Assembly (NCBI GenBank): GCA_018302225.1
Contig: JAGVZY010000010.1
Location: forward strand, 6,645-70,644
From: Candidatus Woesearchaeota archaeon
GTDB lineage: Archaea; Nanobdellota; Nanobdellia; SCGC-AAA011-G17; JAGVZY01
Direction of reading: 5' to 3'
DNA: 64,000 nt
Positions 12,127-50,073 of the stretch are shown here, in pieces. The position numbers and the translations under genes were made by a program. The stretch's first letter is position 1, and each line of letters begins with the position of its first letter. The notes beneath the pieces are model-generated. The model was not told where the DNA came from, searched no databases, and saw only the letters and a list, made by a program, of their open reading frames with translations.

Positions 12127-12250
12127 CGGGCCTGGCAGGATTTGAACCTGCGACCTACTGCTTACTTCCTCCCATTTATTTGGGATGATAAACCTTTTCT
12201 AAAGGTTTATTTAGAAGGCAGTTGCGCTATCCAGGCTGCGCTACAGGCCC
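12127..12250 (-). tRNA. tRNA-Arg (UCU) with 49-nt intron at the canonical 37/38 position
   Basis: Acceptor GGGCCTG/CAGGCCC, D arm GCGC-AGCCTGGATA-GCGC, anticodon stem ACTGC...GCAGT, T arm GCAGG-TTCAAAT-CCTGC. Intron about 12163-12211. The anticodon region CTTC pairs with intron GGAAG (BHB-like). Confidence 0.85.
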
Positions 12251-31219: not shown

Positions 31220-31293
31220 AGCCCTGTAGTCTAGCCGGCCAAGGATGCGAGGCTCTGGACCTTGCGACTCAGGTTCAAATCCTGACGGGGCTA
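31220..31293 (+). tRNA. tRNA-Gln (CUG)
   Basis: Acceptor AGCCCTG/CGGGGCT (A1-U72, as in archaeal tRNA-Gln), anticodon arm CGAGG-CTCTGGA-CCTTG, T arm TCAGG-TTCAAAT-CCTGA. Confidence 0.85.
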
Positions 31294-31366
31294 TCCGTGT
31301 TGACATGACAATCGAGTGTGATCTGAATGCTTAGAATTCTGATAGCAAAATTGCCCCACATTTTGA
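31281..31366. repeat. 86-bp direct repeat, copy 1 (last 13 nt of tRNA-Gln plus 73 nt downstream)
   Basis: Matches 32988-33073 with 2 mismatches (read by eye). Confidence 0.9.
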
Positions 31367-31440
31367 ACGTGTGCGAAGATTCCATTTTAATGGCTAAACA
31401 TTACCTTTACTGAAAAAAGATGCGACACGTTAGCTGTGTT
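31351..31440 (+). ncRNA. Hairpin element S, copy 1 (plus-strand orientation; outer stem degenerate)
   Basis: ttgccccacattttgaacgtgtgcgaagattc...aaaaaagatgcgacacgtt resembles the reverse complement of 37409-37504 and 39521-39615. The inner stem aacgtgt/acacgtt is perfect. RNA versus MITE is unresolved. Confidence 0.45.
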
Positions 31441-31502
31441 AAAAAAATAAGGGGAAGATAATTTGCAGAAAGATTTAAATAAACTCAAATGGACTACAAT
31501 TT

Positions 31503-32042
31503 ATGGAAAAAAGATTTTCTATGGGCACTATAGGTATCTTACACCTTATTGTTTATTCTCTTCTTCTTATCATAATTACAGGCCTTATAATTAACTTAAT
31601 AATAAATAAAAAAATATTCGGAGCAATAATATTAATAAGTTTTAATTTTATTTTATTTCTACCTGCAGTTATTCTCCTTTTAACAAATAATAAAATTATA
31701 ATCCAAGAAGACAAAATAATATTTCCAAGACAAGCGAGGTATGATGGAAAATATGGATTTATAGGAGATTTAAATATTTTTGCTTTTATAAAAAAGAAAC
31801 CTATAATCTCCATTCAGGATATTACATTTCTAAGATATAATTATAATTACTTACCTGTAGTTATGTGTTCCGCAAAAGACCCCTTAAGAAATTTATTAAC
31901 TATAAATTCTAAAGTTTTAGGTAAAAAAAGTTTTACACTTATTCGATTTAATAAAACTAAAATTATAGAGCTCATAAAAAATTTAAAAAAAATGAATCCC
32001 TCAATTAAACTATCAAACGAATGTTCTAATTTGATTAATTGA
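31503..32042 (+). CDS. Hypothetical membrane protein (2 TM plus soluble domain)
   Basis: 179-aa ORF with two N-terminal hydrophobic spans. It is the only gene of the first cassette. Confidence 0.5.
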   Translation: MEKRFSMGTIGILHLIVYSLLLIIITGLIINLIINKKIFGAIILISFNFILFLPAVILLLTNNKIIIQEDKIIFPRQARYDGKYGFIGDLNIFAFIKKKPIISIQDITFLRYNYNYLPVVMCSAKDPLRNLLTINSKVLGKKSFTLIRFNKTKIIELIKNLKKMNPSIKLSNECSNLIN

Positions 32043-32115
32043 TAAAAAACCGTTCCTCCGATGTCACGCATCCAATGGTCTTTCTGACGAACTAACCTAA
32101 AAAAAAGAAAACAAA

Positions 32116-32216
32116 TCACTTAGTAAATATCTTAACTATTACTTGTTCAACTTCTTTGATTTTAGATTCTTTAAGAGAACCAGATTTATAAAAAATAATG
32201 GACTTATCTGCTGTAA
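32116..32216 (-). pseudogene. 3'-terminal fragment of a mazF/pemK-like toxin gene
   Basis: The 101 bp match mazF 34071-34171 with about 4 mismatches. Homology continues into the downstream junction (32084-32115 vs 34040-34070). No 5' part is present. Confidence 0.8.
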
Positions 32217-32225
32217 CTAAACTAA

Positions 32226-32627
32226 TTAAATAACTCTTATTGCTTCTTCAGGCGTTAAAATCTTAATATTCTCATACTCTTTCAATTTCAAAAGATGTTT
32301 ATCCTGACTAATTATGAAATCAACTTGTCCATAGACTGCAGCCCAAATAAATTTATCATCTTCAGGATCTTCCTTAACTATATTGGCACATATAGGGACA
32401 TCAATCATGATTGAATTTTCTAAAATAAGATTCTTCCATTCCTCAATTAGCTCTTTGTCCATAGAAATCTTAAAAGTTTTAAGAGTTTTTACTAATTCTT
32501 CTATAATCTCTTCAGAACTAATTAATTGAAATTTTCCTTCTTTCCATTTATTTATAATTTGAGAACAAAAATTGCCTTCCCAAAATATTCCAGAAATAAA
32601 AACATTTGTGTCTAAAACGACTCTCAT
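32226..32627 (-). CDS. vapC: PIN-domain toxin (VapC-like)
   Basis: MRVVLDTNVFISGIFW... with the acidic residues of the PIN fold (D5, E..E, D near ISQDKHLL). 4-nt overlap with the upstream antitoxin. Confidence 0.85.
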   Translation of the reverse strand: MRVVLDTNVFISGIFWEGNFCSQIINKWKEGKFQLISSEEIIEELVKTLKTFKISMDKELIEEWKNLILENSIMIDVPICANIVKEDPEDDKFIWAAVYGQVDFIISQDKHLLKLKEYENIKILTPEEAIRVI

Positions 32628-32896
32628 TTTTTTCTAGCTTCTTTTATAGCTTCTGTTACATCTACTTGTTTTAAATTCTTAAGTTTTGCAAAATCTCTAG
32701 TTTTTTTAAGCAATTTATCTATTCCATTAAAATTAGGCATTTCTAATTTCTTTAAAACAATAGTATTATCTTCGCCAATAATAACAAACTTCTCTCCTTC
32801 ATGTATTCTAAGCTTATCTCTTAGACTTTGAGGTATAACTACTTGTCCTCTTGAACTCATACTTGTTATTTCTAAATTTTCCATTTTGACCTCCAA
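32624..32896 (-). CDS. vapB: AbrB/SpoVT-family antitoxin (VapB-like)
   Basis: SSRGQVVIPQSLRDKLRIHEGEKFVIIGEDNTIVLKKL swapped-hairpin motif. Confidence 0.8.
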   Translation of the reverse strand: MEVKMENLEITSMSSRGQVVIPQSLRDKLRIHEGEKFVIIGEDNTIVLKKLEMPNFNGIDKLLKKTRDFAKLKNLKQVDVTEAIKEARKK

Positions 32897-32929
32897 TAAA
32901 TTTATACTATCAGTAAGATTATCTTATTT

Positions 32930-32987
32930 ATAAAGCTTTCTGTAATTTTACTAACAGTCCCTCTCAAGTCATGTTTCCTATAGATAA
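32930..32987. repeat. Junction module R3 (contains the BRE/TATA of vapB), copy 1
   Basis: ataaagctttctgtaattttactaacagtccctctcaagtcatgtttcctatagataa resembles 36570-36628 and, more loosely, 39363-39400. Confidence 0.8.
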
Positions 32988-33073
32988 CCTGACGGGGCTA
33001 TCCGTGTTGACATGACAATCGAGTGTGATCTGAATGCTTAGAATTCTGATAGCCAAATTGCCCCATATTTTGA
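32988..33073. repeat. 86-bp direct repeat, copy 2 (tRNA-Gln 3'-end duplicate; attR-like)
   Basis: cctgacggggcta... matches 31281-31366 except at two positions. Confidence 0.9.
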
Positions 33074-33080
33074 GATAACA

Positions 33081-33947
33081 TTAATCTTCCAATCTTATCC
33101 ACTTTTTTTCTTCAATCTTCTTTATAAGTTTAGAATACAAAGATCTATCAATCTTTTTTATTTGTTCTTGAATTTCCTGTTCTAAAGGAATACCGTACGC
33201 CTTACTTCTATTTAAACTCCAATTATAAACGATTGCAGCCATAGCATCAGTTGTTCTATCCGTCAATTGAGGAAATAGTTTATAAAAATTGGTCCTAATT
33301 TCTAAAGAAGAATACTCGGGATGAGCAACGGCTATTGCTAACCAAAACTCACTTTGAGTATTAGTCATAACTTTTATAAAATCTTTCCAAATAGGATTTT
33401 TTTTGAGTAAGTCTGTTTGTTGTTGATAACCGCACCAATAAAGACTGCGATTAGAAACTATATCTCCAACTAACCAAGGTTCATCAATTAATTCCACATG
33501 ATTTTGCGAATAATCATATCTTAATCCATCTAAATAATTCAAACATTGTCTTAATCCTTCTTTTCTTACTTCTCTATCTAATGCAGGATAAACGAAACCT
33601 AAAACATTAAACACTGGAACAATAGTATCTTGATTTGGTCCACCAGCCATAGATTCTCCAAATGCCCTATTAGAAGAGATATCTCTTATTCTTTCTATAT
33701 AGGATCTTAAATTCTTAACCGCCCTTAAGGGATTTTCAAAAAGTAAAGTTTGAAACTCTTGGGCGATAGAATTAGCCTTAGAATATTGTTCTCCTAAAAT
33801 TGAAACCATTTCTGAAATAAACTTTTGATCAAAGCTAAAATTATCAATTACTCCATTCTTTTTAAGACTGATTGAAGGGATCCGTTTTACTTTTGGTTCA
33901 GAAAGCTTCTTTTCCAATTCTTCCTTAAAATTTATTAGTATAACCAT
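33081..33947 (-). CDS. Hypothetical protein (288 aa), cassette cargo
   Basis: Long ORF preceded by conserved promoter module B. No recognisable family or catalytic motif. Confidence 0.55.
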   Translation of the reverse strand: MVILINFKEELEKKLSEPKVKRIPSISLKKNGVIDNFSFDQKFISEMVSILGEQYSKANSIAQEFQTLLFENPLRAVKNLRSYIERIRDISSNRAFGESMAGGPNQDTIVPVFNVLGFVYPALDREVRKEGLRQCLNYLDGLRYDYSQNHVELIDEPWLVGDIVSNRSLYWCGYQQQTDLLKKNPIWKDFIKVMTNTQSEFWLAIAVAHPEYSSLEIRTNFYKLFPQLTDRTTDAMAAIVYNWSLNRSKAYGIPLEQEIQEQIKKIDRSLYSKLIKKIEEKKWIRLED

Positions 33948-33968
33948 TGTTTAAAAGAACTAATTAAG

Positions 33969-34054
33969 ACTTATAAAACTAATCTCAAAATCGTCTCATT
34001 CTTCTCTCCACAATATATAAACAGAACTCCGAGGTATCTCTGACAAACCAACCC
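33969..34054. repeat. Junction module B, copy 1 (TATA 'cttataaaactaatct' ... 'aactccgaggtatctctgacaaaccaaccc')
   Basis: Both ends recur at 38157-38218 and 40381-40458. The middle is variable. Confidence 0.8.
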
Positions 34055-34070
34055 AAAAAAAGAAAACAAA

Positions 34071-34403
34071 TTACTTAGTAAACATCTTAACTATTACTTG
34101 TTCAACTTCTTTTATTTTAGATTCTTTAAGAGAACCAGATTTATAAAGAATAATGGACTTATCTGCTGTAAATAACCTATTAGGTCTAATTGAACTAGTC
34201 AAAGGCAAACTTCCCTTTTTAAAATCTTTATTGTTTAGAATCAAAAAATATTTATCCACTCTAGCTTCGCTAGTTATTTGACAGAGAATGATATCATCCC
34301 CTTCTAATTCAGCAACTACTAAAGCAGGTCTCTTTTTTGAATTACTCAAATCTGAAAATGGAAAAGGTAATACTACTACATCCCCTTTTACAAATTCTTC
34401 CAT
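34071..34403 (-). CDS. mazF: MazF/PemK-family toxin
   Basis: GDVVVLPFPFSDLSNSKKRPALVV...CQITS is the PemK signature. Confidence 0.85.
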   Translation of the reverse strand: MEEFVKGDVVVLPFPFSDLSNSKKRPALVVAELEGDDIILCQITSEARVDKYFLILNNKDFKKGSLPLTSSIRPNRLFTADKSIILYKSGSLKESKIKEVEQVIVKMFTK

Positions 34404-34645
34404 GCTTTTTCATCCTCTTTGCTATTCCAATCTTTAGCTAAAACCATTTCGCTAAACTTAAGAATATCTCTAAAATCATCTTTCATAGATTGTTCAACTT
34501 TTTGTGATTTTTCTAATAAAATCTTATTATCTAATTGTATAACTATTAACTCATCTCCTTGTTCTATTCCTAGAGTTTCTCGCATAGTTTGAGGAAGAGC
34601 AATTTGTCCTTTTTCAGATACTTTAATTGTTTTCATCATATTCAA
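34388..34645 (-). CDS. mazE: AbrB/MazE-family antitoxin
   Basis: VSEKGQIALPQTMRETLGIEQGDELIVIQLDNKILLEK. Overlaps the mazF start. Confidence 0.8.
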   Translation of the reverse strand: MNMMKTIKVSEKGQIALPQTMRETLGIEQGDELIVIQLDNKILLEKSQKVEQSMKDDFRDILKFSEMVLAKDWNSKEDEKAWKNL

Positions 34646-34665
34646 ATGTAAGAATATTCTTACTT

Positions 34666-34750
34666 ATAAAGCTTTCTATTTTTTAGATTATATTTCGATG
34701 GTCTCTCCTACATCACACAACAGGCTCACCCCCTGACAAACCACCCTAAA
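34666..34750. repeat. Junction module A, copy 1
   Basis: ataaagctttctattttttagattatatttcgatggtctctcctacatcacacaacaggctcaccccctgacaaaccaccc resembles 35912-35998. The partial copy is at 41433-41476. Confidence 0.85.
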
Positions 34751-34758
34751 AAACAGGT

Positions 34759-35280
34759 TTAATATGTATCTATAATCTCTTTAACCTTATTCACGAAGTT
34801 TATTGCTTTTCTCTGTAACCCCTCTGCTTCTTTTATATCAAAAAAGATTTTAGTTGAATAATTTGCCTCTTTTCTCTTTGCTTTATTCTTAATATAATCT
34901 AAAACTTCTTCCTTTTCTATAGCCACCTTACTAACTATTGCTATATCTTCTCTATCTAGTTTAATTTTGTAAAAATCTTTAATTAATATTAATAAAGTAG
35001 CTAAATGATTTTTTGTTGAATAGCCTTTTAACGCACACAATGCTAAAGACGCCTGATAAATAGAATAATAAGAAACAACAATTGCCCAATCATTAAATTC
35101 CTTTAATCCTAGAGTGGCTTGAAGAAACTTAAGATTATGATCTGCTTTTTCTATGTGACCTTTAACTAAAGCAGGAGTTTCAGTTTCTTTAGTTATTTTC
35201 TTGGATTTAAGATACTGATTGAAATCTCTATTTCTTCTTTCTTCACTTTCCAGCCATAGTTCCCAAAGCTCTTTAGTCAT
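34759..35280 (-). CDS. HEPN-domain protein (toxin partner of MNT)
   Basis: All-helical 173 aa with KGYSTKNH (Rx4-6H-like position). Overlaps the upstream nucleotidyltransferase gene. Confidence 0.7.
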   Translation of the reverse strand: MTKELWELWLESEERRNRDFNQYLKSKKITKETETPALVKGHIEKADHNLKFLQATLGLKEFNDWAIVVSYYSIYQASLALCALKGYSTKNHLATLLILIKDFYKIKLDREDIAIVSKVAIEKEEVLDYIKNKAKRKEANYSTKIFFDIKEAEGLQRKAINFVNKVKEIIDTY

Positions 35281-35878
35281 TTAATACCTCTTTGTAAAAC
35301 TGATCATTTCCCGATAATGGAAATCCTGTCTTTATTGCGTGAGTTATAACTTTATCTTCTTCTCTTAATATCTGTTCTTTAAAATAGTCAAAATTAATTA
35401 TAAAAGTTTGTATTTTAACTCCTGTTATTGCTTCTATATCTTTTTTAAGTTTTTGATCTTCAGATTCTTTTTTATTATAAACTAAAAGCAAGTCTATATC
35501 ACTTTCTTTTGAAAAAGTTCCTTTTGCAGTCGAACCGAAAAGGAGGGTGATTAAAGGTTTAATCTTAAGTTTATCTAATAAGTCGGTTATTGCCCTTCTT
35601 CTATCTAAAGGAAGTTCATTAAACTTTTTATAATCAAAATAAGCTAGAATAGCATAAAGTTGTTTATTTTTAGGATTTAACTTATAGAAAGTATTTCCTA
35701 TCTTTTTAGTACAAATTATAAGGTTGTTTGTTTGAAGATTCTTCAGATGTTTAAGAGTAGTATTCTGAGTTAGTTTTGTTTCTCTTAAAATCTCACTAAA
35801 ATAAAGCTCTTTAGTATAATTTCTATAAAAACAGGCTAATATCTTTTCTTTTCCGTTTCCGAATAATGTATTGTTCAT
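35273..35878 (-). CDS. Minimal nucleotidyltransferase (MNT) with N-terminal wHTH
   Basis: LLFGSTAKGTFSKESDIDLLLV (GSx10-ishDxD). N-terminal HTH-like segment about 90 aa. Confidence 0.8.
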   Translation of the reverse strand: MNNTLFGNGKEKILACFYRNYTKELYFSEILRETKLTQNTTLKHLKNLQTNNLIICTKKIGNTFYKLNPKNKQLYAILAYFDYKKFNELPLDRRRAITDLLDKLKIKPLITLLFGSTAKGTFSKESDIDLLLVYNKKESEDQKLKKDIEAITGVKIQTFIINFDYFKEQILREEDKVITHAIKTGFPLSGNDQFYKEVLND

Positions 35879-35911
35879 TTTATGTATAGCTTAGTACATT
35901 TAATGTACTAT

Positions 35912-35998
35912 ATAAATCTTTCTATTTTTTAGAGTATATTTCGATGGTCCCTCCTACATCACATCATAGGCTCACCCCCTGACGAACCAACCCAAAAA
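35912..35998. repeat. Junction module A, copy 2
   Basis: ataaatctttctattttttagagtatatttcgatggtccctcctacatcacatcataggctcaccccctgacgaaccaaccc. Confidence 0.85.
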
Positions 35999-36040
35999 AA
36001 CACTTATTAGCCTTACCCTAATTAAATCGAGGACAAAAAT

Positions 36041-36307
36041 TTAATCCCTATAAATTAAATCGTGATGATCGTAATCTTCAAAAAAAATTGTCTGATTTTG
36101 ATGATCTACTTTAAAAACTAAAACAAAATGTCCTATGTGGACTCTATTCAAGCTTTTCATATCATAAGTTAAAAATTTATAACTATGATTAGGATTTTCT
36201 AAAATAGAATCAATCTTTTTTCTAACTTGAAAATAATGCGTATTATCTTTCTTTTTGAGCTTAGCTAACTTTTTTACAATCTCTTCACTATAGCAATCTT
36301 TGTACAT
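36041..36307 (-). CDS. relE: RelE/ParE-superfamily toxin
   Basis: 88 aa: KKLAKLKKKD...KKIDSILENPNHSYKFLTYDMKSLNRVHIGHFVLVFKVDH, the archaeal RelE pattern. Confidence 0.7.
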   Translation of the reverse strand: MYKDCYSEEIVKKLAKLKKKDNTHYFQVRKKIDSILENPNHSYKFLTYDMKSLNRVHIGHFVLVFKVDHQNQTIFFEDYDHHDLIYRD

Positions 36308-36534
36308 TAAGATACCTCTTTTTCTAATTCCTCACGAGAAAAATGCTTTCCTTTTATAATTTTAGCTAATTTGATTTTATATTCAGGCCTTAATTCAGGT
36401 TCTAAAGAAAGTTGTTCATATTCAGTTACGACTATGTTTATTGCCTGAGACTTATCTCTTAAACCAAATTTTGCTTTTACTATGTTTAACACCCTGTTAG
36501 TATTTTCGTCTATATTTATCACAGCTTGTACCAT
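36307..36534 (-). CDS. Antitoxin (DUF2683-like)
   Basis: MVQAVINIDENTNRVLNIVKAKFGLRDKSQAINIVV. Its stop abuts the relE start. Confidence 0.6.
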   Translation of the reverse strand: MVQAVINIDENTNRVLNIVKAKFGLRDKSQAINIVVTEYEQLSLEPELRPEYKIKLAKIIKGKHFSREELEKEVS

Positions 36535-36569
36535 ATTACATCACGTATATAAGTATATATGTCTTATAT

Positions 36570-36702
36570 ATAAATCTTTCTGTAATTTTTGCCACAGTCC
36601 CTCTCAAGTCATGTTTCCCATAGATAACCTGACAGGGCTATAAACACTCGCGTGACATTCTAGGGACCATTTGTCCACAGCCCCTTAAATTCTAAATGTG
36701 AA
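36570..36702. repeat. Composite junction R3 + tRNA-3'-like core + R2, copy A (interrupted at 36702 by the IS)
   Basis: Resembles 39363-39474. The core cctgacagggcta is a degenerate tRNA-Gln 3' end. Confidence 0.85.
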
Positions 36703-37381
36703 CTACTCAGCACTAAAGTGCTGAGCGTCATTAGTTAAATTGAGCTAATCTTAATTGTTCTTTTCCATATTTATAATACTGATAATCAACTGCTTTCCAA
36801 TGTTTCTTTTGGCTATGTTCAACATAGAATCTTACGGAATCTTTTGTAACTGCATCAACAGTTCTATAAAAATATCCCGCACTCCAGAATTTTTTACCCC
36901 ATAACTTATTTTTAAGTAAATCTTTATGATATTTTCTTATCATATAAGATGAGAAACCTTTTAGCTCTCTGACTATTTTTTCTATACTATGCTTCTTCCA
37001 ATTACTAATAAAAATATGTCCATGGTCTGGTCCAAAGTCTATAGCAGGAATTACAAGACCAAGCTTTTCTGATTTTTCAAGGAGATATTTCTTTGTTAAT
37101 TCAAAAACCTTCTTATTCGCAAATACGTCTCTCCTGTATGCAGGAGTAATCTGCAAGTGTAGATTACTTTCTCCTACAGTTGAGCCCGTTTTAACTAATT
37201 CGTTTTTCATTTTTTTCTCCCGACGCAAAGTTTTTATAGAAAGACAGCTTACACTAATTGGTTTCTTTCAAGTAGCGTAGCGTCAACGCTACGTTACATT
37301 TTAGTATGTTTTAGAAGAAATACTTTACGCAATTCATCTCAGACCTAAAGGTATGAGTGTTCTTGTGCTAAAAGGTATAAA
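36703..37381 (-). mobile_element. IS200/IS605-family insertion sequence (tnpA only), about 679 bp
   Basis: Boundaries inferred from the uninterrupted paralogous site 39461-39485 (aaatatgaa|agccgaaat). No target duplication. Subterminal hairpins ctcagcac-taaa-gtgctgag (36706-36725) and tagcgtagcg-tcaa-cgctacgtta (37285-37308). Confidence 0.8.
36731..37228 (-). CDS. tnpA: IS200/IS605 Y1 (HUH) transposase TnpA
   Basis: HUH motif DHGHIFI and catalytic-Tyr region WSAGYFYRTVDAVT. The start may be ATG 37210. Confidence 0.9.
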   Translation of the reverse strand: MRREKKMKNELVKTGSTVGESNLHLQITPAYRRDVFANKKVFELTKKYLLEKSEKLGLVIPAIDFGPDHGHIFISNWKKHSIEKIVRELKGFSSYMIRKYHKDLLKNKLWGKKFWSAGYFYRTVDAVTKDSVRFYVEHSQKKHWKAVDYQYYKYGKEQLRLAQFN

Positions 37382-37504
37382 AGCCGAAATAAAAAATACC
37401 TCAAAAAGTTCCGCCACAAGGCCAACGTGTCGCATCTTTTTTTAGTGCAAGTAAATTATTACCTAAATTTTAGAATCTACGCACACATTAAAAACGTGGC
37501 GGAA
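37382..37504 (-). ncRNA. Linker plus hairpin element S, copy 2 (S = 37409-37504)
   Basis: On the minus strand: ttccgccac...gtggcggaa is a perfect 9-bp outer stem, and the inner stem aatgtgt/acacgtt has one G-U. About 50 nt downstream of the 193-aa ORF stop. Confidence 0.5.
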
Positions 37505-37554
37505 TAAATTTTAAGATAAAAGAAGAATTTATTGAATCTAGATCTTCAAGAAAA

Positions 37555-38136
37555 TTAATAGTCCTGCCACAACCAAGGTCTCTCTTTTCTTACCTCCATA
37601 AATAATTCAAAGCTAAGTTTGTCTTTCTTATCAGGAAGATAATTAGGAAATTTATTTACATCAAAATTCGGTTTATTAATCAAAAAGGTAAAAAATTCTG
37701 TTAAGTCTTCATCAACTAAAACATTTAACCCCCGTTCATAAGATCTTTTGGCTAATTTTTCAACACAATCCCACATATGAAATCCAGCGATTCTAATTAC
37801 TTTAACTATACCTAATTGATTAATTATATAATCTTGATTAGGATAGGAATAAGTTCCATCAGATTTTTTTGTAGTATGAGTTTTAAAATCCATCCCTACG
37901 TTTAGAATCTTATCCGATTCATGAAGTTCAATCATATCTGAAAGGGTAGTATCATTAAAAAGGGCATAATTTATATTAAAACCTTTTTGCCTATATCTCA
38001 AATCTATACATTGGTTTAAAAGAAGTTTATATTTTTGTTTAAACAAATCAGGTTCTTTTACATTCATCCAGCGCTTACACCCCAATTCAAAGTTTATTAT
38101 CTCTGGAATAGGATATAAAAATACAAACTCTTGCAT
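37555..38136 (-). CDS. Hypothetical protein (193 aa), weakly isochorismatase/cysteine-hydrolase-like
   Basis: IRIAGFHMWDCVEKLAKRSYERGLNVLVDEDL resembles the G...CV...A...G..V.V..D core. Other catalytic residues were not identified. Confidence 0.4.
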   Translation of the reverse strand: MQEFVFLYPIPEIINFELGCKRWMNVKEPDLFKQKYKLLLNQCIDLRYRQKGFNINYALFNDTTLSDMIELHESDKILNVGMDFKTHTTKKSDGTYSYPNQDYIINQLGIVKVIRIAGFHMWDCVEKLAKRSYERGLNVLVDEDLTEFFTFLINKPNFDVNKFPNYLPDKKDKLSFELFMEVRKERPWLWQDY

Positions 38137-38156
38137 ATCTAATTATTAATATTTAA

Positions 38157-38218
38157 ACTTATAAAACTAATCTAGATATATAAATAACACTCCAAGGTAT
38201 CTCTGACCAACTAAAACC
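38157..38218. repeat. Junction module B, copy 2
   Basis: acttataaaactaatct...acactccaaggtatctctgaccaactaaaacc. Confidence 0.8.
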
Positions 38219-38265
38219 GAAAGATATATAAATAACCAATATCTTGGTTTATATAACCCAATAAA

Positions 38266-38895
38266 GTGGTTAATATGATAACTCAAAAACAATTCAAAAT
38301 ATTTGGGATATTCGCAAGTAAACCTTTTGTAGAACATACCCGAAACGAAATAAAAAAAGAACTAAAAGAAAAGTCTAATAATGCTCTAGCTTTAACTATC
38401 AACCTATTAAAAAAAGAAGAAGTCCTAATTGAAAAAAAAGTTGGAAAATCTGGTCTTCTAACCCTTAATTTAAACAAAGATTTAACCTTTTCTTATCTCG
38501 AATTATGGAGTTTATCCAAACTTCCCCATTTAGCTAAACTTTCTCTGGAAACCTTAAAAAAAGAAATTACTGAAAACACCCCATTTTATTCCTTAGTTAT
38601 CTTTGGTTCTTATGCTATAAATCAACAAAAGGATAACTCGGATTTAGATATTGCAATTTTTATTGAAAAGGAAAACAATAAAAAGCAAATAGAAGCTTTA
38701 GTGAATAGTGCAAAATTAAAAAGTACAATTGAAATAGATGCACATATTATCCCAAAATCAGAGATGATTGAAATGCTTACAAATAAAGAAGAAAACTTAG
38801 GAAAACAAATAGCACGAAAACATTTAGCTTATTATAATAATAGGATATTTTATGAAATAATCAAAGAAGGGAGGGATCATGGATTTAGGATATAA
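38266..38895 (+). CDS. Minimal nucleotidyltransferase (MNT) with N-terminal wHTH
   Basis: VIFGSYAINQQKDNSDLDIAIFI. The start may be ATG 38275. Confidence 0.8.
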   Translation: MVNMITQKQFKIFGIFASKPFVEHTRNEIKKELKEKSNNALALTINLLKKEEVLIEKKVGKSGLLTLNLNKDLTFSYLELWSLSKLPHLAKLSLETLKKEITENTPFYSLVIFGSYAINQQKDNSDLDIAIFIEKENNKKQIEALVNSAKLKSTIEIDAHIIPKSEMIEMLTNKEENLGKQIARKHLAYYNNRIFYEIIKEGRDHGFRI

Positions 38896-39352
38896 AATTT
38901 ATCTTGCACGAGCTCAGAACGAATTAAACCTTTCAATGATAGTTCAAAAAATAAGTGATAATAAGAAACTACAAATTGAAGTGTTTGAAATGAAAGAAGA
39001 TACTTATTATAGCGCAGCTATTTCTCATGCTTACTATTCAATATTTTATGCTGCAAAAGCTTATCTTTTATTAAAGAATATAAAGACTCTGGCGCCTGAA
39101 GAACATAGAAAAACCTTTGAAGAATTCTCAAAGCTCGTAAACAAAGGTATAATTGATGTAGAATTACTCAGAATCTATCAAAGTATGCTTATCAAAGCAG
39201 ATACGCTTCTAAATATATTTGAACTAGAAAAAGGAAAAAGAGGAAAGTTCACTTATAGAAGAATACCTCAAGCAAATCAAGAACCTGCGCAAGAAAGTAT
39301 AAAAAATGCACAAATATTTTTTAAGAATATATTTAGATTATGTGAGAAATAA
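38879..39352 (+). CDS. HEPN-domain protein
   Basis: All-helical, AISHAYYSIFYAAKAYLL...APEEHRKT. Overlaps the MNT stop. Confidence 0.7.
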   Translation: MDLGYKIYLARAQNELNLSMIVQKISDNKKLQIEVFEMKEDTYYSAAISHAYYSIFYAAKAYLLLKNIKTLAPEEHRKTFEEFSKLVNKGIIDVELLRIYQSMLIKADTLLNIFELEKGKRGKFTYRRIPQANQEPAQESIKNAQIFFKNIFRLCEK

Positions 39353-39362
39353 TAGCCTTATT

Positions 39363-39474
39363 TTGCCACAGTCTCCCAAGTCATATTTCTTCTAAATAAG
39401 CTGACGGGACTATAAACACTCGCGTGACATTCGAGGAACCATTTCCTCACAACTCCTTAAATTCTAAATATGAA
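39363..39474. repeat. Composite junction R3' + tRNA-3'-like core + R2, copy B (uninterrupted)
   Basis: gccacagtctcccaagtcatatttcttctaaataagctgacgggactataaacactcgcgtgacattcgagg...ttaaattctaaatatgaa. Confidence 0.85.
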
Positions 39475-39615
39475 AGCCGAAATAAAAAAATACCTCAAAA
39501 AGTGGATTTTGAGCTGAGAATTCCGCCACAAGGCCAACGTGTCGCATCTTTTTTTAGTGCAAGTAAATTATTACCTAAATTTTAGAATCTACGCACACAT
39601 TCAAAACGTGGCAGG
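39475..39615 (-). ncRNA. Linker plus hairpin element S, copy 3 (S = 39521-39615)
   Basis: Near-identical to copy 2. The single outer-stem change gives U-G on the minus strand and C-A on the plus strand. Confidence 0.5.
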
Positions 39616-39667
39616 AGAAAGTTGAAAATAAAAGAGAAATTAAATGTAGATATTAAGCTTATAAATT

Positions 39668-40360
39668 TTATTTAGTTAATTTAATTTCTGCAAGTTGTCT
39701 ATTAAGAATTACATAAAGAGGAATATAACCATTTCCAAAGTTTTCATGAATATAACCTAAAACCTTCATTTGTGGCAACTTCTCTCTTGCCGAGATTTTA
39801 TTAATCTCATCTTCTATTAATGGATCATTGTTCTTAATTCTTTGAGACAGTTCTTCAAAGCTCAATTTGCTTCCAGTTCTATAAAAATCTATTTCTTCTA
39901 AAGATCTATCTATCCTACTTAATCTTTGAGTATATAATTGAACTTGCTTTTCAGATTTTAATGCCCCAACAGGATAATCTCCTTTTTGTAATAAACTTCT
40001 CGGCGTTCCTTTCCATTCAGATCCTAAGGTAACAATACCATAAGAAGAACTTAAAATTTTAGCTATATTATAATTAATATATCTCGAATTTAAATTAATT
40101 TTATCTAACTTAGACCAAATCGCAATAATTTCTAAAGATTCAAAGTTAAAATCATTAATTCTTTCCACTTCGTCCGCAAAATCCCCTAAGTTAGCACAAA
40201 TATAATCCTGAGCTTCAGAATTATTCTTTTCCTTTAAATTTTTAGCAATATCAATTATCTTTATTTGATAGTTATTCAAAAGAGTTATAACTGGATGTTC
40301 TTCAAAGCCTCTTAAATTCAAGGCATTATTCACTTCTGAATCTGTAAGGGGTAAGTTCAT
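39668..40360 (-). CDS. Hypothetical protein (230 aa), cassette cargo
   Basis: Long ORF behind promoter module B. No family recognised. Confidence 0.55.
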   Translation of the reverse strand: MNLPLTDSEVNNALNLRGFEEHPVITLLNNYQIKIIDIAKNLKEKNNSEAQDYICANLGDFADEVERINDFNFESLEIIAIWSKLDKINLNSRYINYNIAKILSSSYGIVTLGSEWKGTPRSLLQKGDYPVGALKSEKQVQLYTQRLSRIDRSLEEIDFYRTGSKLSFEELSQRIKNNDPLIEDEINKISAREKLPQMKVLGYIHENFGNGYIPLYVILNRQLAEIKLTK

Positions 40361-40380
40361 AATTTAAAAAATGATTCAAG

Positions 40381-40458
40381 CTTTATAAAACTAATCTAAA
40401 AACCCTATCCGTGAGATTTGAATAGAACTCCGAGGTATCTCTAACAACCAACCCAACC
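40381..40458. repeat. Junction module B, copy 3 (core CTAAC)
   Basis: ctttataaaactaatct...agaactccgaggtatctctaacaaccaacccaacc. Confidence 0.8.
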
Positions 40459-40520
40459 GAAACCTTTAAATATCTACACATACATACACGTATTAACACA
40501 TAATACACAAGGCGATAAAT

Positions 40521-40745
40521 ATGGTAAATGTAACATTAGCTATTCCCGTAGAATTAAAACAAAAGATGGATTTATTCAATGAAATTAATTGGAGTGCTGT
40601 TGCAAGGCAAGCATTTGACGAAAAAATAAACGATTTAGAATTCATCAAAAAGTTTAAAGCAAAAAGTATAGTTACAGAAAGAGATACTTTAGAATGGGGT
40701 AAAAAGTTAAATAAAAGTTTGGCAAAAAGAAGGTACTCCGTCTAA
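40521..40745 (+). CDS. Antitoxin-like small protein (RHH/VapB-like)
   Basis: MVNVTLAIPVELKQKMD...NWSAVARQAFDEKI. Stops 1 nt before the PIN gene. Confidence 0.6.
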   Translation: MVNVTLAIPVELKQKMDLFNEINWSAVARQAFDEKINDLEFIKKFKAKSIVTERDTLEWGKKLNKSLAKRRYSV

Positions 40746-40746
40746 A

Positions 40747-41136
40747 ATGGACTTAATCGTAGATGCTAATATTCTTTTTTCTATTTTAATTAAACAAGGA
40801 AAGACCGAAGAACTTATTTTTAAAAATGAATTTCATCTTTTTACTCCAGAATATATTTTTGAAGAATTTGAAAAACATAAATCAGAAATTATAGAAAAAA
40901 CACAAAGAAATTCTGAAGATTTTAATAATTTGACGAATATATTGAAAAAGAGAATAAATACTATTAGTAATGAAGAAACTGAAAGATTTATTATGGCCGC
41001 TAAAAAAATAAGCCCAGATCCAGATGATATTGATTATTTTGCCTTGGCATTGAAAATTAAATGCCCCATTTGGAGTCAAGATAAAAAGCTTAAATTGCAA
41101 AAAAAGATTATAAAATATACTCTACAGAAGAAATAG
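40747..41136 (+). CDS. PIN-domain protein (VapC-like toxin)
   Basis: MDLIVDANILFSILIK...TPEYIFEEF...DPDDIDYFALAL...SQDKKL. Confidence 0.75.
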   Translation: MDLIVDANILFSILIKQGKTEELIFKNEFHLFTPEYIFEEFEKHKSEIIEKTQRNSEDFNNLTNILKKRINTISNEETERFIMAAKKISPDPDDIDYFALALKIKCPIWSQDKKLKLQKKIIKYTLQKK

Positions 41137-41170
41137 TGAAGTTATTTGAATAAAAAAAGAAGTAAATAAT

Positions 41171-41383
41171 ATGATTCAAAATAAAAGAAAATTAAAAAAG
41201 ACCTTATGGGTATTTACCTTATTTTATTTAATAGGATTAATAATTGGTTTGGGTCTAATCTTTTCAATGTCCAACGCCCCAACTACCAAAAATATAATTT
41301 TTATTTTAGTTCTAGACTTTGTTATTATGGGCACAATTACCTATCTCTACATTTGGAAAGAGCTCCCAACAATTGGAATTTAG
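41171..41383 (+). CDS. Small two-TM membrane protein (70 aa)
   Basis: Hydrophobic spans LWVFTLFYLIGLIIGLGLIF and IIFILVLDFVIMGTITYLYIW. Confidence 0.45.
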   Translation: MIQNKRKLKKTLWVFTLFYLIGLIIGLGLIFSMSNAPTTKNIIFILVLDFVIMGTITYLYIWKELPTIGI

Positions 41384-41432
41384 TTAATTCAGATATCGAA
41401 AAAAACCTTCCCTCGAATGTCACGCATCCGGG

Positions 41433-41476
41433 GGTCTCTCCTACATCACACAACAGGCTCACTGTCTGACGAAACG
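41433..41476. repeat. Junction module A, partial copy 3 (right end of the cassette region)
   Basis: ggtctctcctacatcacacaacaggctcactgtctgacgaaacg. It is preceded by tcgaatgtcacgcatcc, a motif also at 32058-32074 and, inverted, in both R2 copies. Confidence 0.75.
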
Positions 41477-41496
41477 AATTTTATAAAAAGAAAAAA

Positions 41497-41836: not shown

Positions 41837-42109
41837 ATGACTAAAACAACTTGGTATATTTACATTCTAGAATGTCTTGATGGTTCTTATTACACTGGTG
41901 TCACAAACAACCTAGAAAAAAGAATGAAAACCCATCAATCTGGAAAAGGAAGTAAATATGTAAAAAGAAAAGGATTTAACCATTTAATCACCTCCTCCAA
42001 ATGCAAAGACAAATCAGATGCATGCAAAAAAGAATATTTAATTAAACAACTTCCAAAACATGAAAAATTAAAATTTTTAAAAAATCTAAGTCTTAATCCC
42101 ATTATTTGA
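41837..42109 (+). CDS. GIY-YIG nuclease superfamily protein
   Basis: WYIYILECLDGSYYTGVTNNLEKRMKTHQSGKGSKY. Confidence 0.85.
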   Translation: MTKTTWYIYILECLDGSYYTGVTNNLEKRMKTHQSGKGSKYVKRKGFNHLITSSKCKDKSDACKKEYLIKQLPKHEKLKFLKNLSLNPII

Positions 42110-49401: not shown

Positions 49402-49518
49402 ATCTAGACTTAAAACACTCCGAAAACCTTTAAAAGCTTTTCTATGAAAATATGCCCCCATCAAGTTATAAACCTTACTTAGATTAGTTTTATTAAGCTT
49501 AATTCCCTACTTGAACAA

Positions 49519-50073
49519 ATGTCTTATTCAAAAATAACTCAAATTAATAGGGAAAATATATACCACTTATACAAAACTTACTTATCTTCATTTTTTAAAG
49601 ACGACTTACAACAAAGAAAGAAAATAAGAAAGACTATAAAAACTACTATTTCTAAAACAAAAAAACCTGACCAATATATCCAGAATCTAATTCTTTTTTC
49701 AAGAAGCATAGACACCAGTTTAATAGAAAATAATTATCTACGATCACCCACAAAAAACAAGGAAGATTTCTTAAATTATATTTCAAACGGAATTCAAAAC
49801 ATTTCTTTATATTATCAAAACAATCAAAATTTGCTTAACAAAATAGTTTATTCTACTTCATTATTTAGCCTTGCATCAGGACACAGAGATGAAGACATTT
49901 TAAAAGCAGTATTCAAAAGAGTTATACCTTCAAGCTTAAGTTTAATTGAAAAAATTCATCTTTTTGAGCCTTATGTAAACTCAAACTTCTCAACAAAAGA
50001 AGGTTTAAAGTATCTTTTTTTACGTTTAACAAAACATTCTAACCCAAAACTTTTTATATTCCAAAAAAATTAA
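49519..50073 (+). CDS. Hypothetical protein (184 aa)
   Basis: ORF of normal composition. No family recognised. Confidence 0.45.
   Translation: MSYSKITQINRENIYHLYKTYLSSFFKDDLQQRKKIRKTIKTTISKTKKPDQYIQNLILFSRSIDTSLIENNYLRSPTKNKEDFLNYISNGIQNISLYYQNNQNLLNKIVYSTSLFSLASGHRDEDILKAVFKRVIPSSLSLIEKIHLFEPYVNSNFSTKEGLKYLFLRLTKHSNPKLFIFQKN

What the first reader, a model, noticed from the sequence alone, without database searches (positions are those of the whole stretch)
33081..40458. Three unrelated ORFs (288, 193 and 230 aa) embedded in the same conserved 5' and 3' flanks
Seen directly, reading the minus strand: the ORFs at 33081-33947, 37555-38136 and 39668-40360 show no similarity to each other. Each is nevertheless preceded by the same module B: aactcc(g/a)aggtatctct(g/a)ac, then a variable stretch, then agattagttttataag. 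The homology ends at the TATA box, about 20-25 nt before the ATG. The 193-aa and 230-aa ORFs are also followed by the same 3' block. That block begins about 25 nt before hairpin S, continues through the linker agccgaaat..., and ends with R2 and the tRNA-like core. The 288-aa ORF is followed by the R1 version, which carries only a 16-nt remnant of S. Inference: conserved flanks around a swappable ORF suggest either a family of small non-autonomous cargo-carrying elements or cassette exchange by homologous recombination. The three cargo proteins sit in a TA/defence context and are candidates for unknown defence or addiction functions.
Basis: partly seen in the sequence, partly recalled or inferred. 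Interest (0 to 1): 0.7.

Follow-up and report, generated by a model that had tools for sequence, protein, structure and literature searches.

The report
Gene cassettes stacked beside a tRNA gene
Three unrelated genes of a tiny groundwater archaeon do sit in the same conserved flanks, most likely because they are cargo of small integrase-less mobile units that piled up one after another beside a tRNA-Gln gene; this is a known way of building genomic islands, here in miniature form.

Summary
The 288-, 193- and 230-aa ORFs are unrelated. All three share the upstream module B. The 193- and 230-aa ORFs share a 3' block of about 200 nt.

The flanks are part of a larger pattern. The window comes from a ~28% GC DPANN-type archaeon. 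Positions 31294 to about 41490 form an island beside tRNA-Gln(CTG). It holds about ten small gene units, mostly toxin-antitoxin (TA) pairs, separated by four repeat families.

The 3' block ends in a partial copy of the tRNA-Gln 3' end (R1, R2a, R2b). That is the usual scar of integrase-mediated insertion at a tRNA.

- One strain variant has a different ORF, with the same pre-S/S block, touching the real tRNA-Gln.
- Another variant has ORF288 touching the real tRNA-Gln.
- In another archaeon, the S hairpin sits at the tRNA-Gln junction of a 6.4-kb element that carries a tyrosine integrase.

Best reading: serial accretion of small integrase-less elements that share a backbone and differ in cargo.

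It is not a canonical integron. Modules A and B do not fold, there are no R boxes, and no integrase lies on the 86-kb contig.

The defence/addiction idea for the cargo is not supported. ORF193 has an isochorismatase-like fold. Homologues of all three proteins lie in housekeeping neighbourhoods elsewhere. Interest is moderate.

The parts
31220..31293 (+). tRNA-Gln(CTG), the seed of the island. Its 3' end CCTGACGGGGCTA is the sequence copied in R1, R2a and R2b.
   Evidence: ARAGORN and Rfam; alignment.
31281..31366 (+). 86-nt direct repeat, copy 1: the tRNA 3' end plus its downstream spacer. It is 98% identical to 32988-33073.
   Evidence: Contig L017 joins the two copies and lacks 31367-32987.
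31350..31439 (+). S hairpin, tRNA-proximal copy. It is flipped relative to the two other copies.
   Evidence: It is 91% identical to the S copy beside tRNA-Gln(TTG) in L036.
31503..32042 (+). 179-aa predicted membrane ORF, the cargo of the tRNA-proximal unit.
   Evidence: no Pfam hit.
32055..32069 (-). Motif M (GCGTGACATCGGAGG), minus-strand copy.
   Evidence: 4 copies found, 0.11 expected.
32084..32224 (-). Junction motif J (32084-97) plus a 3' fragment of a mazF pseudogene (32100-32224, 95% identical to 34055-34179).
32226..32896 (-). AbrB/MazE-type antitoxin plus PIN_3 toxin pair.
   Evidence: precomputed Pfam.
32908..33073 (+). R1: promoter AGAAAGCTTTATA (minus strand), a pseudo-T-arm, the partial tRNA-Gln 3' end (32988-33000), a copy of the tRNA flank and a remnant of about 16 nt of S.
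33081..33947 (-). ORF288: an all-alpha protein of a conserved DPANN/CPR family of unknown function.
33970..34053 (-). Module B, copy 1: promoter 33970-85, core 34026-44, J 34040-53.
34071..34645 (-). MazE/MazF pair.
34665..34753 (-). Repeat A, copy 1: J motif, a 41-nt core and the promoter AGAAAGCTTTATA.
34759..35878 (-). Nucleotidyltransferase (NTase)/HEPN-like pair.
35911..35999 (-). Repeat A, copy 2 (90% identical to copy 1).
36041..36534 (-). 75-aa plus 88-aa pair, read as RelB/RelE-like from gene sizes and order only. No Pfam hit is on record.
36548..36702 (+). R2a: promoter (minus strand), a pseudo-T-arm, the partial tRNA-Gln 3' end (about 36629-36641) and motif M (36650-64).
36703..37375 (-). 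IS200/IS605-family insertion. TnpA is at 36731-37228 (Y1_Tnp, E = 1e-25). It has subterminal hairpins and no target duplication. It splits the 193 3' block from R2a. The boundary is uncertain by about 6 nt.
37376..37534 (-). 3' block of ORF193: pre-S (37506-27), S hairpin (37416-37505) and a T-rich linker.
37555..38136 (-). ORF193: isochorismatase-like (cysteine hydrolase) fold. The family has more than 230 members in DPANN/CPR.
38158..38216 (-). Module B, copy 2.
38266..39352 (+). NTase/HEPN pair on the opposite strand, divergent from ORF193.
39322..39474 (+). R2b: a pseudo-T-arm, the partial tRNA-Gln 3' end (about 39402-39414) and motif M (39422-36).
39475..39646 (-). 3' block of ORF230: pre-S, S hairpin (39528-39611), an extra 18-nt hairpin and the linker.
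39668..40360 (-). ORF230: a member of a divergent family (131 relatives at 23-36% identity) of unknown function.
40382..40454 (-). Module B, copy 3.
40521..41383 (+). RHH_12 antitoxin, PIN_2 toxin and a 70-aa membrane ORF on the opposite strand.
41411..41490 (-). Motif M (41411-25, a perfect inverted copy of 39422-36) plus repeat A, copy 3 (41433-73). This is the probable distal end of the island.

Best explanation
**What it is.** The region 31294 to about 41490 is a genomic island seeded by tRNA-Gln(CTG). It was most likely built by repeated site-specific insertion (accretion) of small elements that carry no integrase of their own.

**How it forms (inferred).**
1. Each insertion at the tRNA 3' end pushes older units outward.
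2. Each insertion leaves a partial tRNA-Gln copy (R1, R2a, R2b) between units.
3. The units belong to one family and share a non-coding backbone.

**The shared backbone.**
- On the tRNA-proximal side: the partial tRNA end, motif M, a linker, the S hairpin and a 22-nt pre-S stretch. Together with the T-runs, this side probably also terminates the cargo transcript.
- Further in: promoter module B.
- In two units: a TA pair on the other strand, then a distal arm.

**Why unrelated genes share flanks.** The cargo slot lies between pre-S and the TATA box of module B. It holds ORF230, ORF193 or ORF288, and a fourth ORF in a strain variant. That is why unrelated genes appear in identical flanks.

**Inferred steps.** A tyrosine integrase acting in trans would supply mobility. 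The 420-aa enzyme of the S-bearing element in L036 is an example. Homologous recombination between the conserved backbone modules would shuffle cargo.

**Shown versus inferred.**
- Shown: the repeat anatomy, the partial tRNA copies, the unrelated cargo, the variant junctions and the related integrase element.
- Inferred: the recombination chemistry, the trans-acting integrase, the exact element ends, and the roles of S, M and B.
For: - Partial tRNA-Gln 3' ends lie in the tRNA's own orientation at 32988, about 36629 and about 39402. They are the only island sites that reach the 99.9th percentile in a scan with the tRNA 3' half.
- An 86-nt direct repeat (98% identical) brackets 31367-32987. Contig L017 lacks exactly that segment.
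- L044 comes from the same population (99.9% identical flank). It has a different ORF, an identical 22-nt pre-S stretch and S, abutting the real tRNA-Gln.
- Variation is confined to the tRNA-proximal end. The distal side is invariant across contigs. The tRNA-seeded island model predicts this pattern (10.1101/2020.12.28.424599).
- L036, another DPANN archaeon, has this order: tRNA-Gln(TTG), an M-like motif, S (91% identical), pre-S, and then a 6.4-kb element with a PF00589 integrase. The element ends in a direct repeat of the tRNA end.
- Relatives of that integrase lie directly beside tRNA-Glu or tRNA-Asp in four DPANN-type loci.
- Units 36642-39414 and 39415-41476 share one layout but have unrelated cargo and unrelated TA pairs.
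- M forms a perfect 15-nt inverted pair at 39422 and 41411.
- An IS200 insertion inside one 3' block shows that the block was once contiguous.
- Arrays of elements integrated by tyrosine recombinases are documented in archaea (PMC6563490).
Against: - No integrase was seen on the 86-kb source contig. This rests on precomputed Pfam calls and my own scans.
- No circular or empty-site junction was observed directly.
- L017 and L044 are single short metagenomic contigs. Their junctions lie in or next to repeats, so mis-assembly cannot be excluded.
- Repeats A and B, and the motif J, are not demonstrably tRNA-derived. They do not stand out in the scan, and BLAST finds no A-R similarity. Whether they are recombination sites is therefore open.
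- Modules B, A and M were found nowhere outside this population.
- S is inverted between copies, which a simple integration model does not predict.
Confidence: 0.55

Rival explanations
1. The island is explained by homologous recombination alone. The conserved promoter modules (B, A/R) and terminator modules (S/linker) were duplicated within the island. They act as portable homology, so genes were swapped in and out by ordinary recombination. No dedicated site-specific recombinase is involved. The partial tRNA copies are old scars unrelated to the present flanks.
For: - The homology tracts are long enough to serve (60-200 nt at 77-98% identity).
- The L017 junction lies inside an 86-nt repeat.
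- The mazF 3' fragment at 32100-32224, joined to a PIN gene, shows illegitimate or homologous rearrangement inside the island.
- No integrase lies in cis.
Against: - It does not explain why the 3' block always ends in a tRNA-Gln 3' copy.
- It does not explain why the same block abuts the genuine tRNA in L044.
- It does not explain why S, pre-S and an M-like motif sit at the tRNA junction of an integrase element in a different species.
- This reading and the best explanation are not mutually exclusive.
Confidence: 0.2
2. The flanks reflect a regulon and not mobility. Module B is a shared promoter plus operator. S is a shared terminator or RNA-stability hairpin. The three genes are co-regulated and may act in one pathway related to nucleotide metabolism.
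For: - The B promoter 16-mer is exclusive to the three ORFs. Homology stops at the TATA box, 21-22 nt before each ATG.
- A hairpin works as a hairpin in either orientation, which would tolerate the flipping of S.
- Homologues of all three families lie near nucleotide-metabolism genes elsewhere: RNR/NrdR, NrdD, dUTPase, ThyX, NDK, NUDIX and PNP.
Against: - The conserved part of B lies upstream of the TATA box and includes the J motif, which it shares with the TA-unit repeats.
- The 3' homology runs well past any terminator, into M and a partial tRNA.
- The three families are not neighbours in other genomes.
- A regulon does not explain the variant junctions at the tRNA.
Confidence: 0.12
3. The island is an archaeal integron cassette array without its integrase (a CALIN). 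The inter-cassette repeats, or S, act as attC sites.
For: - The array holds about ten units of 0.65-1.6 kb, rich in TA genes and mostly co-oriented, with repeats more similar within the array than to anything outside it.
- Integrons and CALINs are reported in Nanoarchaeota, with TA cassettes prevalent (PMC9668308).
- S has two stems, an internal loop and a variable terminal loop.
Against: - A and B do not fold. Their z-scores range from -0.7 to +1.4.
- By my reading, S has no paired RYYYAAC/GTTRRRY boxes.
- S is not at the homology boundary. Conserved sequence continues on both sides of it.
- Each unit has its own TATA promoter, and some units are inverted.
- There is no IntI on the contig.
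- The array is anchored to a tRNA gene, not to an attI site.
Confidence: 0.06
4. The pattern arose by tandem duplication of one gene with its flanks, and the paralogues then diverged beyond recognition.
For: The two units carrying ORF193 and ORF230 have the same layout and similar size.
Against: - The flanks are 77-98% identical, while the proteins show no similarity.
- The proteins have different folds: all-alpha versus alpha/beta hydrolase.
- They belong to separate, widely distributed families.
Confidence: 0.02

Closest known systems
tRNA-seeded genomic islands grown by serial integration of tyrosine-recombinase elements. Examples are the tycheposon islands of Prochlorococcus (10.1101/2020.12.28.424599) and arrays of integrated elements in archaea (PMC6563490). 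'Gene capture in archaeal chromosomes', She et al. 2001, is cited from my own knowledge.
   Same: - The island is anchored to the 3' end of a tRNA gene.
- Partial tRNA copies lie between units.
- Degenerate units without an integrase are present.
- Strain heterogeneity is concentrated at the tRNA-proximal end.
- The island is rich in TA genes.
   Different: - The units here are very small (about 1-3.6 kb). None retains an integrase or replication gene.
- They share a compact non-coding backbone (M, S, B) with cargo slots whose boundaries are precise to the TATA box.
- The host is a DPANN-type archaeon with a reduced genome.
Cis-mobilizable elements (CIMEs) and accretion with ICEs and IMEs in streptococci. 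The terms appear in PMC5704250 and PMC7563491, which my search listed but which I did not read. The description below is from my own knowledge.
   Same: These are att-flanked elements that lack their own recombination genes. They accumulate in tandem at one attachment site and depend on an integrase supplied by a related element.
   Different: Those are bacterial, usually larger, and linked to conjugation. Here no helper element is present in the window, and trans-mobilisation is only inferred from L036.
Integrons and CALINs, including those of Archaea (PMC9668308).
   Same: An array of small cassettes separated by related repeats, enriched in TA modules, with no integrase in cis, as in CALINs.
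   Different: - The repeats are not foldable attC sites.
- The cassettes carry their own promoters.
- The array abuts a tRNA, and its scars are partial tRNA copies, which points to classical att recombination.
Modular mosaicism of phages and integrative elements through conserved boundary sequences (general knowledge).
   Same: Unrelated genes occupy the same slot between conserved linker sequences.
   Different: The scale is single genes of 0.6-0.9 kb. The setting is a chromosomal island and not a phage genome.

Membership tests
tRNA-targeting integrative elements / tandem accretion island | The island lies immediately 3' of a tRNA gene. | tested here: met
   tRNA-Gln is at 31220-31293. The island starts at 31294.
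tRNA-targeting integrative elements / tandem accretion island | Direct repeats of the tRNA 3' end delimit the units. | tested here: met
   R1, R2a and R2b carry CCTGACRGGRCTAT in the tRNA's orientation. They are the top island hits in the tRNA 3'-half scan. Repeats A and B do not pass this test.
tRNA-targeting integrative elements / tandem accretion island | The element encodes a tyrosine or serine recombinase. | tested here: not met
   There is no Phage_integrase hit in the island or elsewhere on the 86-kb contig. The feature is met only in the related locus L036 (PF00589).
tRNA-targeting integrative elements / tandem accretion island | Presence/absence polymorphism with breakpoints at att repeats. 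| tested here: inconclusive
   L017 lacks 31367-32987 exactly between the 86-nt repeats. L044 has another ORF at the tRNA. Both are single short contigs, so assembly artefacts are not excluded.
tRNA-targeting integrative elements / tandem accretion island | Excision to a circular intermediate and re-integration. | not testable with these tools
   This needs raw reads or an experiment.
Integron / CALIN | attC sites: imperfect palindromes that fold as hairpins with R''/R' boxes (RYYYAAC...GTTRRRY) at the cassette boundaries. | tested here: not met
   A and B do not fold better than shuffles. S folds, but by my reading it lacks paired R boxes, and it lies inside a longer homology tract. IntegronFinder's attC model could not be run.
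Integron / CALIN | An IntI integrase with an adjacent attI and a Pc promoter. | tested here: not met
   There is no integrase on the contig. Each unit has its own TATA box.
IS200/IS605 (the insertion at 36703-37375) | A Y1 transposase, subterminal hairpins, no terminal inverted repeats and no target duplication. | tested here: met
   Y1_Tnp scores E = 1e-25. A hairpin lies at the right end, and a left-end palindrome is read. The junctions, compared with the uninterrupted 230 copy, show no duplication.
Isochorismatase-like cysteine hydrolases (ORF193) | The alpha/beta fold of the family and a conserved catalytic Cys. | tested here: inconclusive
   The AF2 model has pLDDT 90.5. All top Foldseek hits are family members, with probability 1.0 but TM-scores of only 0.40-0.49. 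C124 is invariant in 27 homologues. The Pfam hit is below threshold (17.9 versus 27 bits). The Asp/Lys of the catalytic triad were not verified.
Anti-phage defence or TA proteins (the three cargo ORFs) | A match to a known defence or toxin family, or conserved linkage to such genes. | tested here: not met
   There are no PADLOC hits. Homologues lie in housekeeping contexts.
Transposon / MITE with terminal inverted repeats | Terminal inverted repeats flanked by a target-site duplication. | tested here: inconclusive
   M forms a perfect 15-nt inverted pair at 39422/41411 and a weaker pair at about 31303/32055. No consistent duplication adjoins them, and the 193 unit has only one M.

The most novel reading that the evidence does not exclude
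DPANN archaea may possess an integron-like gene-capture system that does not use attC hairpins. In this reading, single genes or TA pairs of about 1 kb, each with its own promoter, are inserted one at a time next to tRNA-Gln. Insertion would use short junction sites (the CTGAC core with J, M and the flippable S hairpin) and a tyrosine integrase encoded elsewhere. All ten units of the island would then be individually mobile cassettes. The S hairpin would be a recombination or inversion site and not merely a terminator.
Probability: 0.15. Interest if true: 0.75.

Novelty: new variant of a known kind. Interest (0 to 1): 0.45.

Why it matters
DPANN archaea have tiny genomes, and how they gain and lose genes is poorly known. 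This locus shows a compact way in which a reduced genome can hold a flexible gene pool: a stack of 1-3-kb units beside one tRNA gene, with a reusable promoter and terminator/attachment backbone and interchangeable cargo.

If the units are mobilised in trans, they would be among the smallest integrative elements described. They would also give a defined set of sequences for testing archaeal integrase specificity: the partial tRNA core, M and S.

The work also corrects a tempting inference. The three cargo genes are not obvious defence genes. They belong to widespread DPANN/CPR families of unknown or hydrolase function that usually sit near nucleotide-metabolism genes.

Tried and rejected
- **Module B core in GTDB genomes and viral contigs.** Only chance hits in unrelated bacteria, or none.
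- **S core in GTDB genomes and viral contigs.** Chance hits only.
- **Rfam at gathering and at E-value thresholds.** Nothing except the tRNA.
- **attC-like folding of A, B and R.** Not significant.
- **Idea that A and B are diverged copies of the tRNA-Gln T-arm.** An alignment looked suggestive. A window-wide scan with the tRNA 3' half did not single them out, and BLAST finds no A-R similarity. I dropped the claim.
- **Idea that the B core is a diverged M motif.** Similarity was about 4/8 to 10/16 by eye. Not demonstrable, so dropped.
- **Scaffold L015 'lacking' module B.** It is an N-gap artefact.
- **Covariation in S.** Five sequences are too few and too similar. The inner stem is invariant, and only 2 of 25 pairs show double changes.
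- **PDB sequence searches for the three families.** No meaningful hits. The weak HA2 coiled-coil match for ORF230 is compositional.
- **Fold search for ORF288.** No match below E = 0.1.
- **Relatives of the L036 integrase (15 loci).** None carries S, M, A or B.
- **Search for an integrase on the source contig.** None found.
- **Phage database search with the IS200 region.** No match.

Full report
**1. What the window is**

The window has 26-32% GC throughout. It carries archaeal housekeeping genes: ribosomal proteins, RFC, MCM, TBP and topoisomerase VI. It also carries an intron-containing tRNA.

The same sequence occurs at more than 99.9% identity on many contigs from Rifle-type groundwater metagenomes. 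The nearest protein relatives are annotated Nanoarchaeia, Woesearchaeota, Diapherotrites or CPR. I therefore treat the organism as a DPANN-type archaeon.

**2.

Module B is real.
- Its 19-nt core occurs three times, against 0.01 expected.
- Its promoter 16-mer occurs exactly three times, always 21-22 nt before the ATG.

The 3' blocks of ORF193 and ORF230 match at 81% over 203 nt. Each block has four parts:
- a 22-25-nt pre-S stretch;
- a hairpin S of about 95 nt (z = -4.2);
- a T-rich linker;
- R2, which contains a copy of the 3' end of tRNA-Gln.

In the 193 copy, an IS200-family element of about 675 bp lies between the linker and R2a. It has a Y1 transposase and subterminal hairpins. Comparison with the uninterrupted 230 copy gives clean junctions without target duplication.

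Behind ORF288 lies R1. It is a 98% copy of the tRNA 3' end plus 73 nt of its flank, and it stops inside the first arm of S.

**3. The flanks are part of a larger pattern**

tRNA-Gln(CTG) sits at 31220-31293. From there to about 41490 every gene unit is embedded in repeats.
- Four co-oriented TA operons are each preceded by the promoter AGAAAG(C/A)TTTATA inside repeat R or A. They are AbrB/PIN, MazEF, NTase/HEPN and a RelBE-like pair.
- Most intergenic repeats begin with a junction motif, GGTTGGTTYGTCAG. With at most one mismatch it occurs four times, all in the island and all on the minus strand.
- A 15-nt motif M (GCGTGACATTCGAGG) occurs four times, against 0.11 expected. It forms one perfect inverted pair at 39422(+) and 41411(-).
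- A third S copy lies 57 nt downstream of the real tRNA, in the opposite orientation.

**4. Units delimited by partial tRNA copies**

I scanned the whole window with the 3' half of tRNA-Gln. Within the island, only R1, R2a and R2b reach the 99.9th percentile.

These three partial copies, plus the tRNA itself, divide the island into units of 1.7, 3.6, 2.8 and about 2.1 kb. The 2.8-kb unit would be 2.1 kb without the IS.

The two units with ORF193 and ORF230 have the same layout: partial tRNA end, M, linker, S, pre-S, ORF-X on the minus strand, module B, a TA pair on the plus strand, and a distal arm. The ORFs and the TA pairs are nevertheless unrelated. One unit has NTase/HEPN; the other has RHH_12/PIN_2 plus a 70-aa ORF.

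Module B may therefore be an internal, bidirectional promoter module of a shared backbone and not an element end.

**5. Variants in the same population**

- Contig L017 joins ORF288 directly to the genuine tRNA-Gln. It lacks exactly the segment between the two 86-nt repeats.
- Contig L044 is 99.9% identical in the tRNA-side flank. Beyond S it carries a different ORF (C-terminus ...CFLCKTHHNELH...). That ORF is followed by a pre-S stretch identical in 22/22 positions to that of ORF193, then S, then the tRNA spacer and the real tRNA.

So the arrangement 'ORF, pre-S, S, spacer, tRNA end' exists at the true tRNA. The blocks behind ORF193 and ORF230 look like older copies of that junction.

The distal half of the island shows no such variation in any contig. 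Many contigs break at S or at the 86-nt repeat.

Both variant contigs are short, and their junctions touch repeats. Chimeric assembly therefore remains possible.

**6. A related element with an integrase**

Its order is as follows.
- tRNA-Gln(TTG).
- An M-like motif, 11/15 identical by my reading, about 10 nt after the tRNA.
- S (91% identical) and pre-S.
- A 6.4-kb element that encodes an AAA-like protein, a reverse transcriptase, a 420-aa tyrosine integrase (PF00589) and an NTase/HEPN pair.
- A direct repeat of the tRNA end, TGCTCGGGGCTATA.

Relatives of that integrase in other DPANN genomes sit directly next to tRNA-Glu or tRNA-Asp. They lack S, M, A and B.

The S module is therefore the tRNA-side arm of a family of elements that integrate at tRNA-Gln. 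The family is narrow.

**7. The cargo proteins**

- **ORF193.** It belongs to a family of more than 230 DPANN/CPR proteins at 47-63% identity. The model has pLDDT 90.5. Its fold matches isochorismatase-like cysteine hydrolases with probability 1.0 but TM-scores of only 0.40-0.49. The family has an invariant Cys.
- **ORF288.** It has about 38 homologues. The all-alpha model is confident (pLDDT 89.5) and has no PDB match.
- **ORF230.** The word-indexed search made it look like an orphan. The exhaustive search found 131 relatives at 23-36% identity. None has a Pfam domain.
- **Contexts elsewhere.** Homologues of all three lie among housekeeping genes, often nucleotide-metabolism genes. The neighbours include NrdR/RNR, thioredoxin, NrdD, dUTPase, ThyX, NDK, NUDIX, PNP and ribosomal proteins.
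- **Defence.** No PADLOC model matches. Nothing points to a defence or addiction function.

**8. Interpretation**

The best-supported reading is a tRNA-seeded island built by accretion of small integrase-less elements that share a backbone and differ in cargo. This matches the model described for tycheposon islands and arrays of integrated elements in archaea.

The roles of a trans-acting integrase, of homologous recombination between backbone modules, and of S, M, J, A and B are inferred, not shown.

A canonical integron is excluded on four counts:
- A and B do not fold;
- S lacks R boxes and lies inside longer homology;
- every unit has its own promoter;
- no integrase lies on the 86-kb contig.

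This holds even though CALINs are known in Nanoarchaeota.

A pure regulon explanation accounts for the promoter, and perhaps for S. It does not account for the partial tRNA copies or the variant junctions.

Tandem duplication with divergence is refuted.

**9. What remains odd**

S is precisely inverted, relative to conserved flanks, between the tRNA-type copies (window, L044, L036) and the two R2-type copies. Recombination between its own arms could produce this. I cannot say whether the inversion is functional.

**10. Verdict**

The locus is a miniature, integrase-less variant of a known way of building islands. Interest is moderate.

Noticed in passing
window 36703-37375: An IS200/IS605-family element (TnpA only, Y1_Tnp E = 1e-25) is inserted without target duplication into the 3' block of ORF193. 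Its ends carry hairpins (acgtagcgttgacgctacgct and gctcagcactttagtgctgagt).
   Followed up: yes
window 31350-31439 versus 37416-37505 and 39528-39611; L044 135-235; L036 11298-11379: The S hairpin occurs in two orientations relative to the same flanks (the pre-S stretch on one side, the tRNA-like core on the other). This looks like a flip of the whole inverted repeat.
   Followed up: partly
protein P0039 (1296-nt metagenomic contig): The first 45 residues of ORF288 are fused to a C-terminal region that, by my reading, has TnpB/Cas12-like motifs (a zinc-finger CxxC...CxxC and a RuvC-III-like ...ADADIQASQ...). It is either an IS insertion variant or a chimeric contig.
   Followed up: no
L036 5040-11543: A 6.4-kb element is integrated in tRNA-Gln(TTG) of another DPANN archaeon. 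It carries a tyrosine integrase, a reverse transcriptase (RVT_1), an AAA-like protein, a 261-aa unknown ORF and an NTase/HEPN pair. The reverse-transcriptase module could be a defence system.
   Followed up: partly
window 32100-32224: A 3' fragment of mazF, 95% identical to the intact mazF at 34055-34179. It abuts the stop codon of an unrelated PIN gene and marks a past rearrangement inside the island.
   Followed up: partly
L013 (window 38009-38039) and L064/L073 (NTase 38266-38895): These population variants carry a 31-nt deletion in ORF193 (product 182 aa) and a split NTase gene (64 + 155 aa). This suggests that these island genes are dispensable or decaying in part of the population.
   Followed up: no
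window 39422-39436 (+) and 41411-41425 (-); also 36650-36664 (+) and 32055-32069 (-): The 15-nt motif M (GCGTGACATTCGAGG) occurs four times, only in the island. One pair is a perfect inverted repeat that brackets the 2-kb ORF230 unit. It may be a protein-binding site.
   Followed up: partly
window 49481-49496 (+): A one-mismatch copy of the B-type promoter (AGATTAGTTTTATTAA) lies 22 nt upstream of the ATG of the 184-aa ORF at 49519-50073, outside the island.
   Followed up: no
L019, L022, L069, L071: Homologues of all three cargo families lie near nucleotide-metabolism genes in other DPANN/CPR genomes (RNR/NrdR, NrdD, dUTPase, ThyX, Tmk, NDK, NUDIX, PNP). This hints at a shared, unrecognised role in nucleotide metabolism.
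   Followed up: partly
window 12127-12250 (-): A 124-nt Rfam tRNA hit that ARAGORN did not call, next to tRNA-Cys. It is probably an intron-containing archaeal tRNA.
   Followed up: no
window 41837-42109 (+): A stand-alone 90-aa GIY-YIG nuclease-domain ORF lies at the distal border of the island, overlapping the end of an MFS transporter gene.
   Followed up: no
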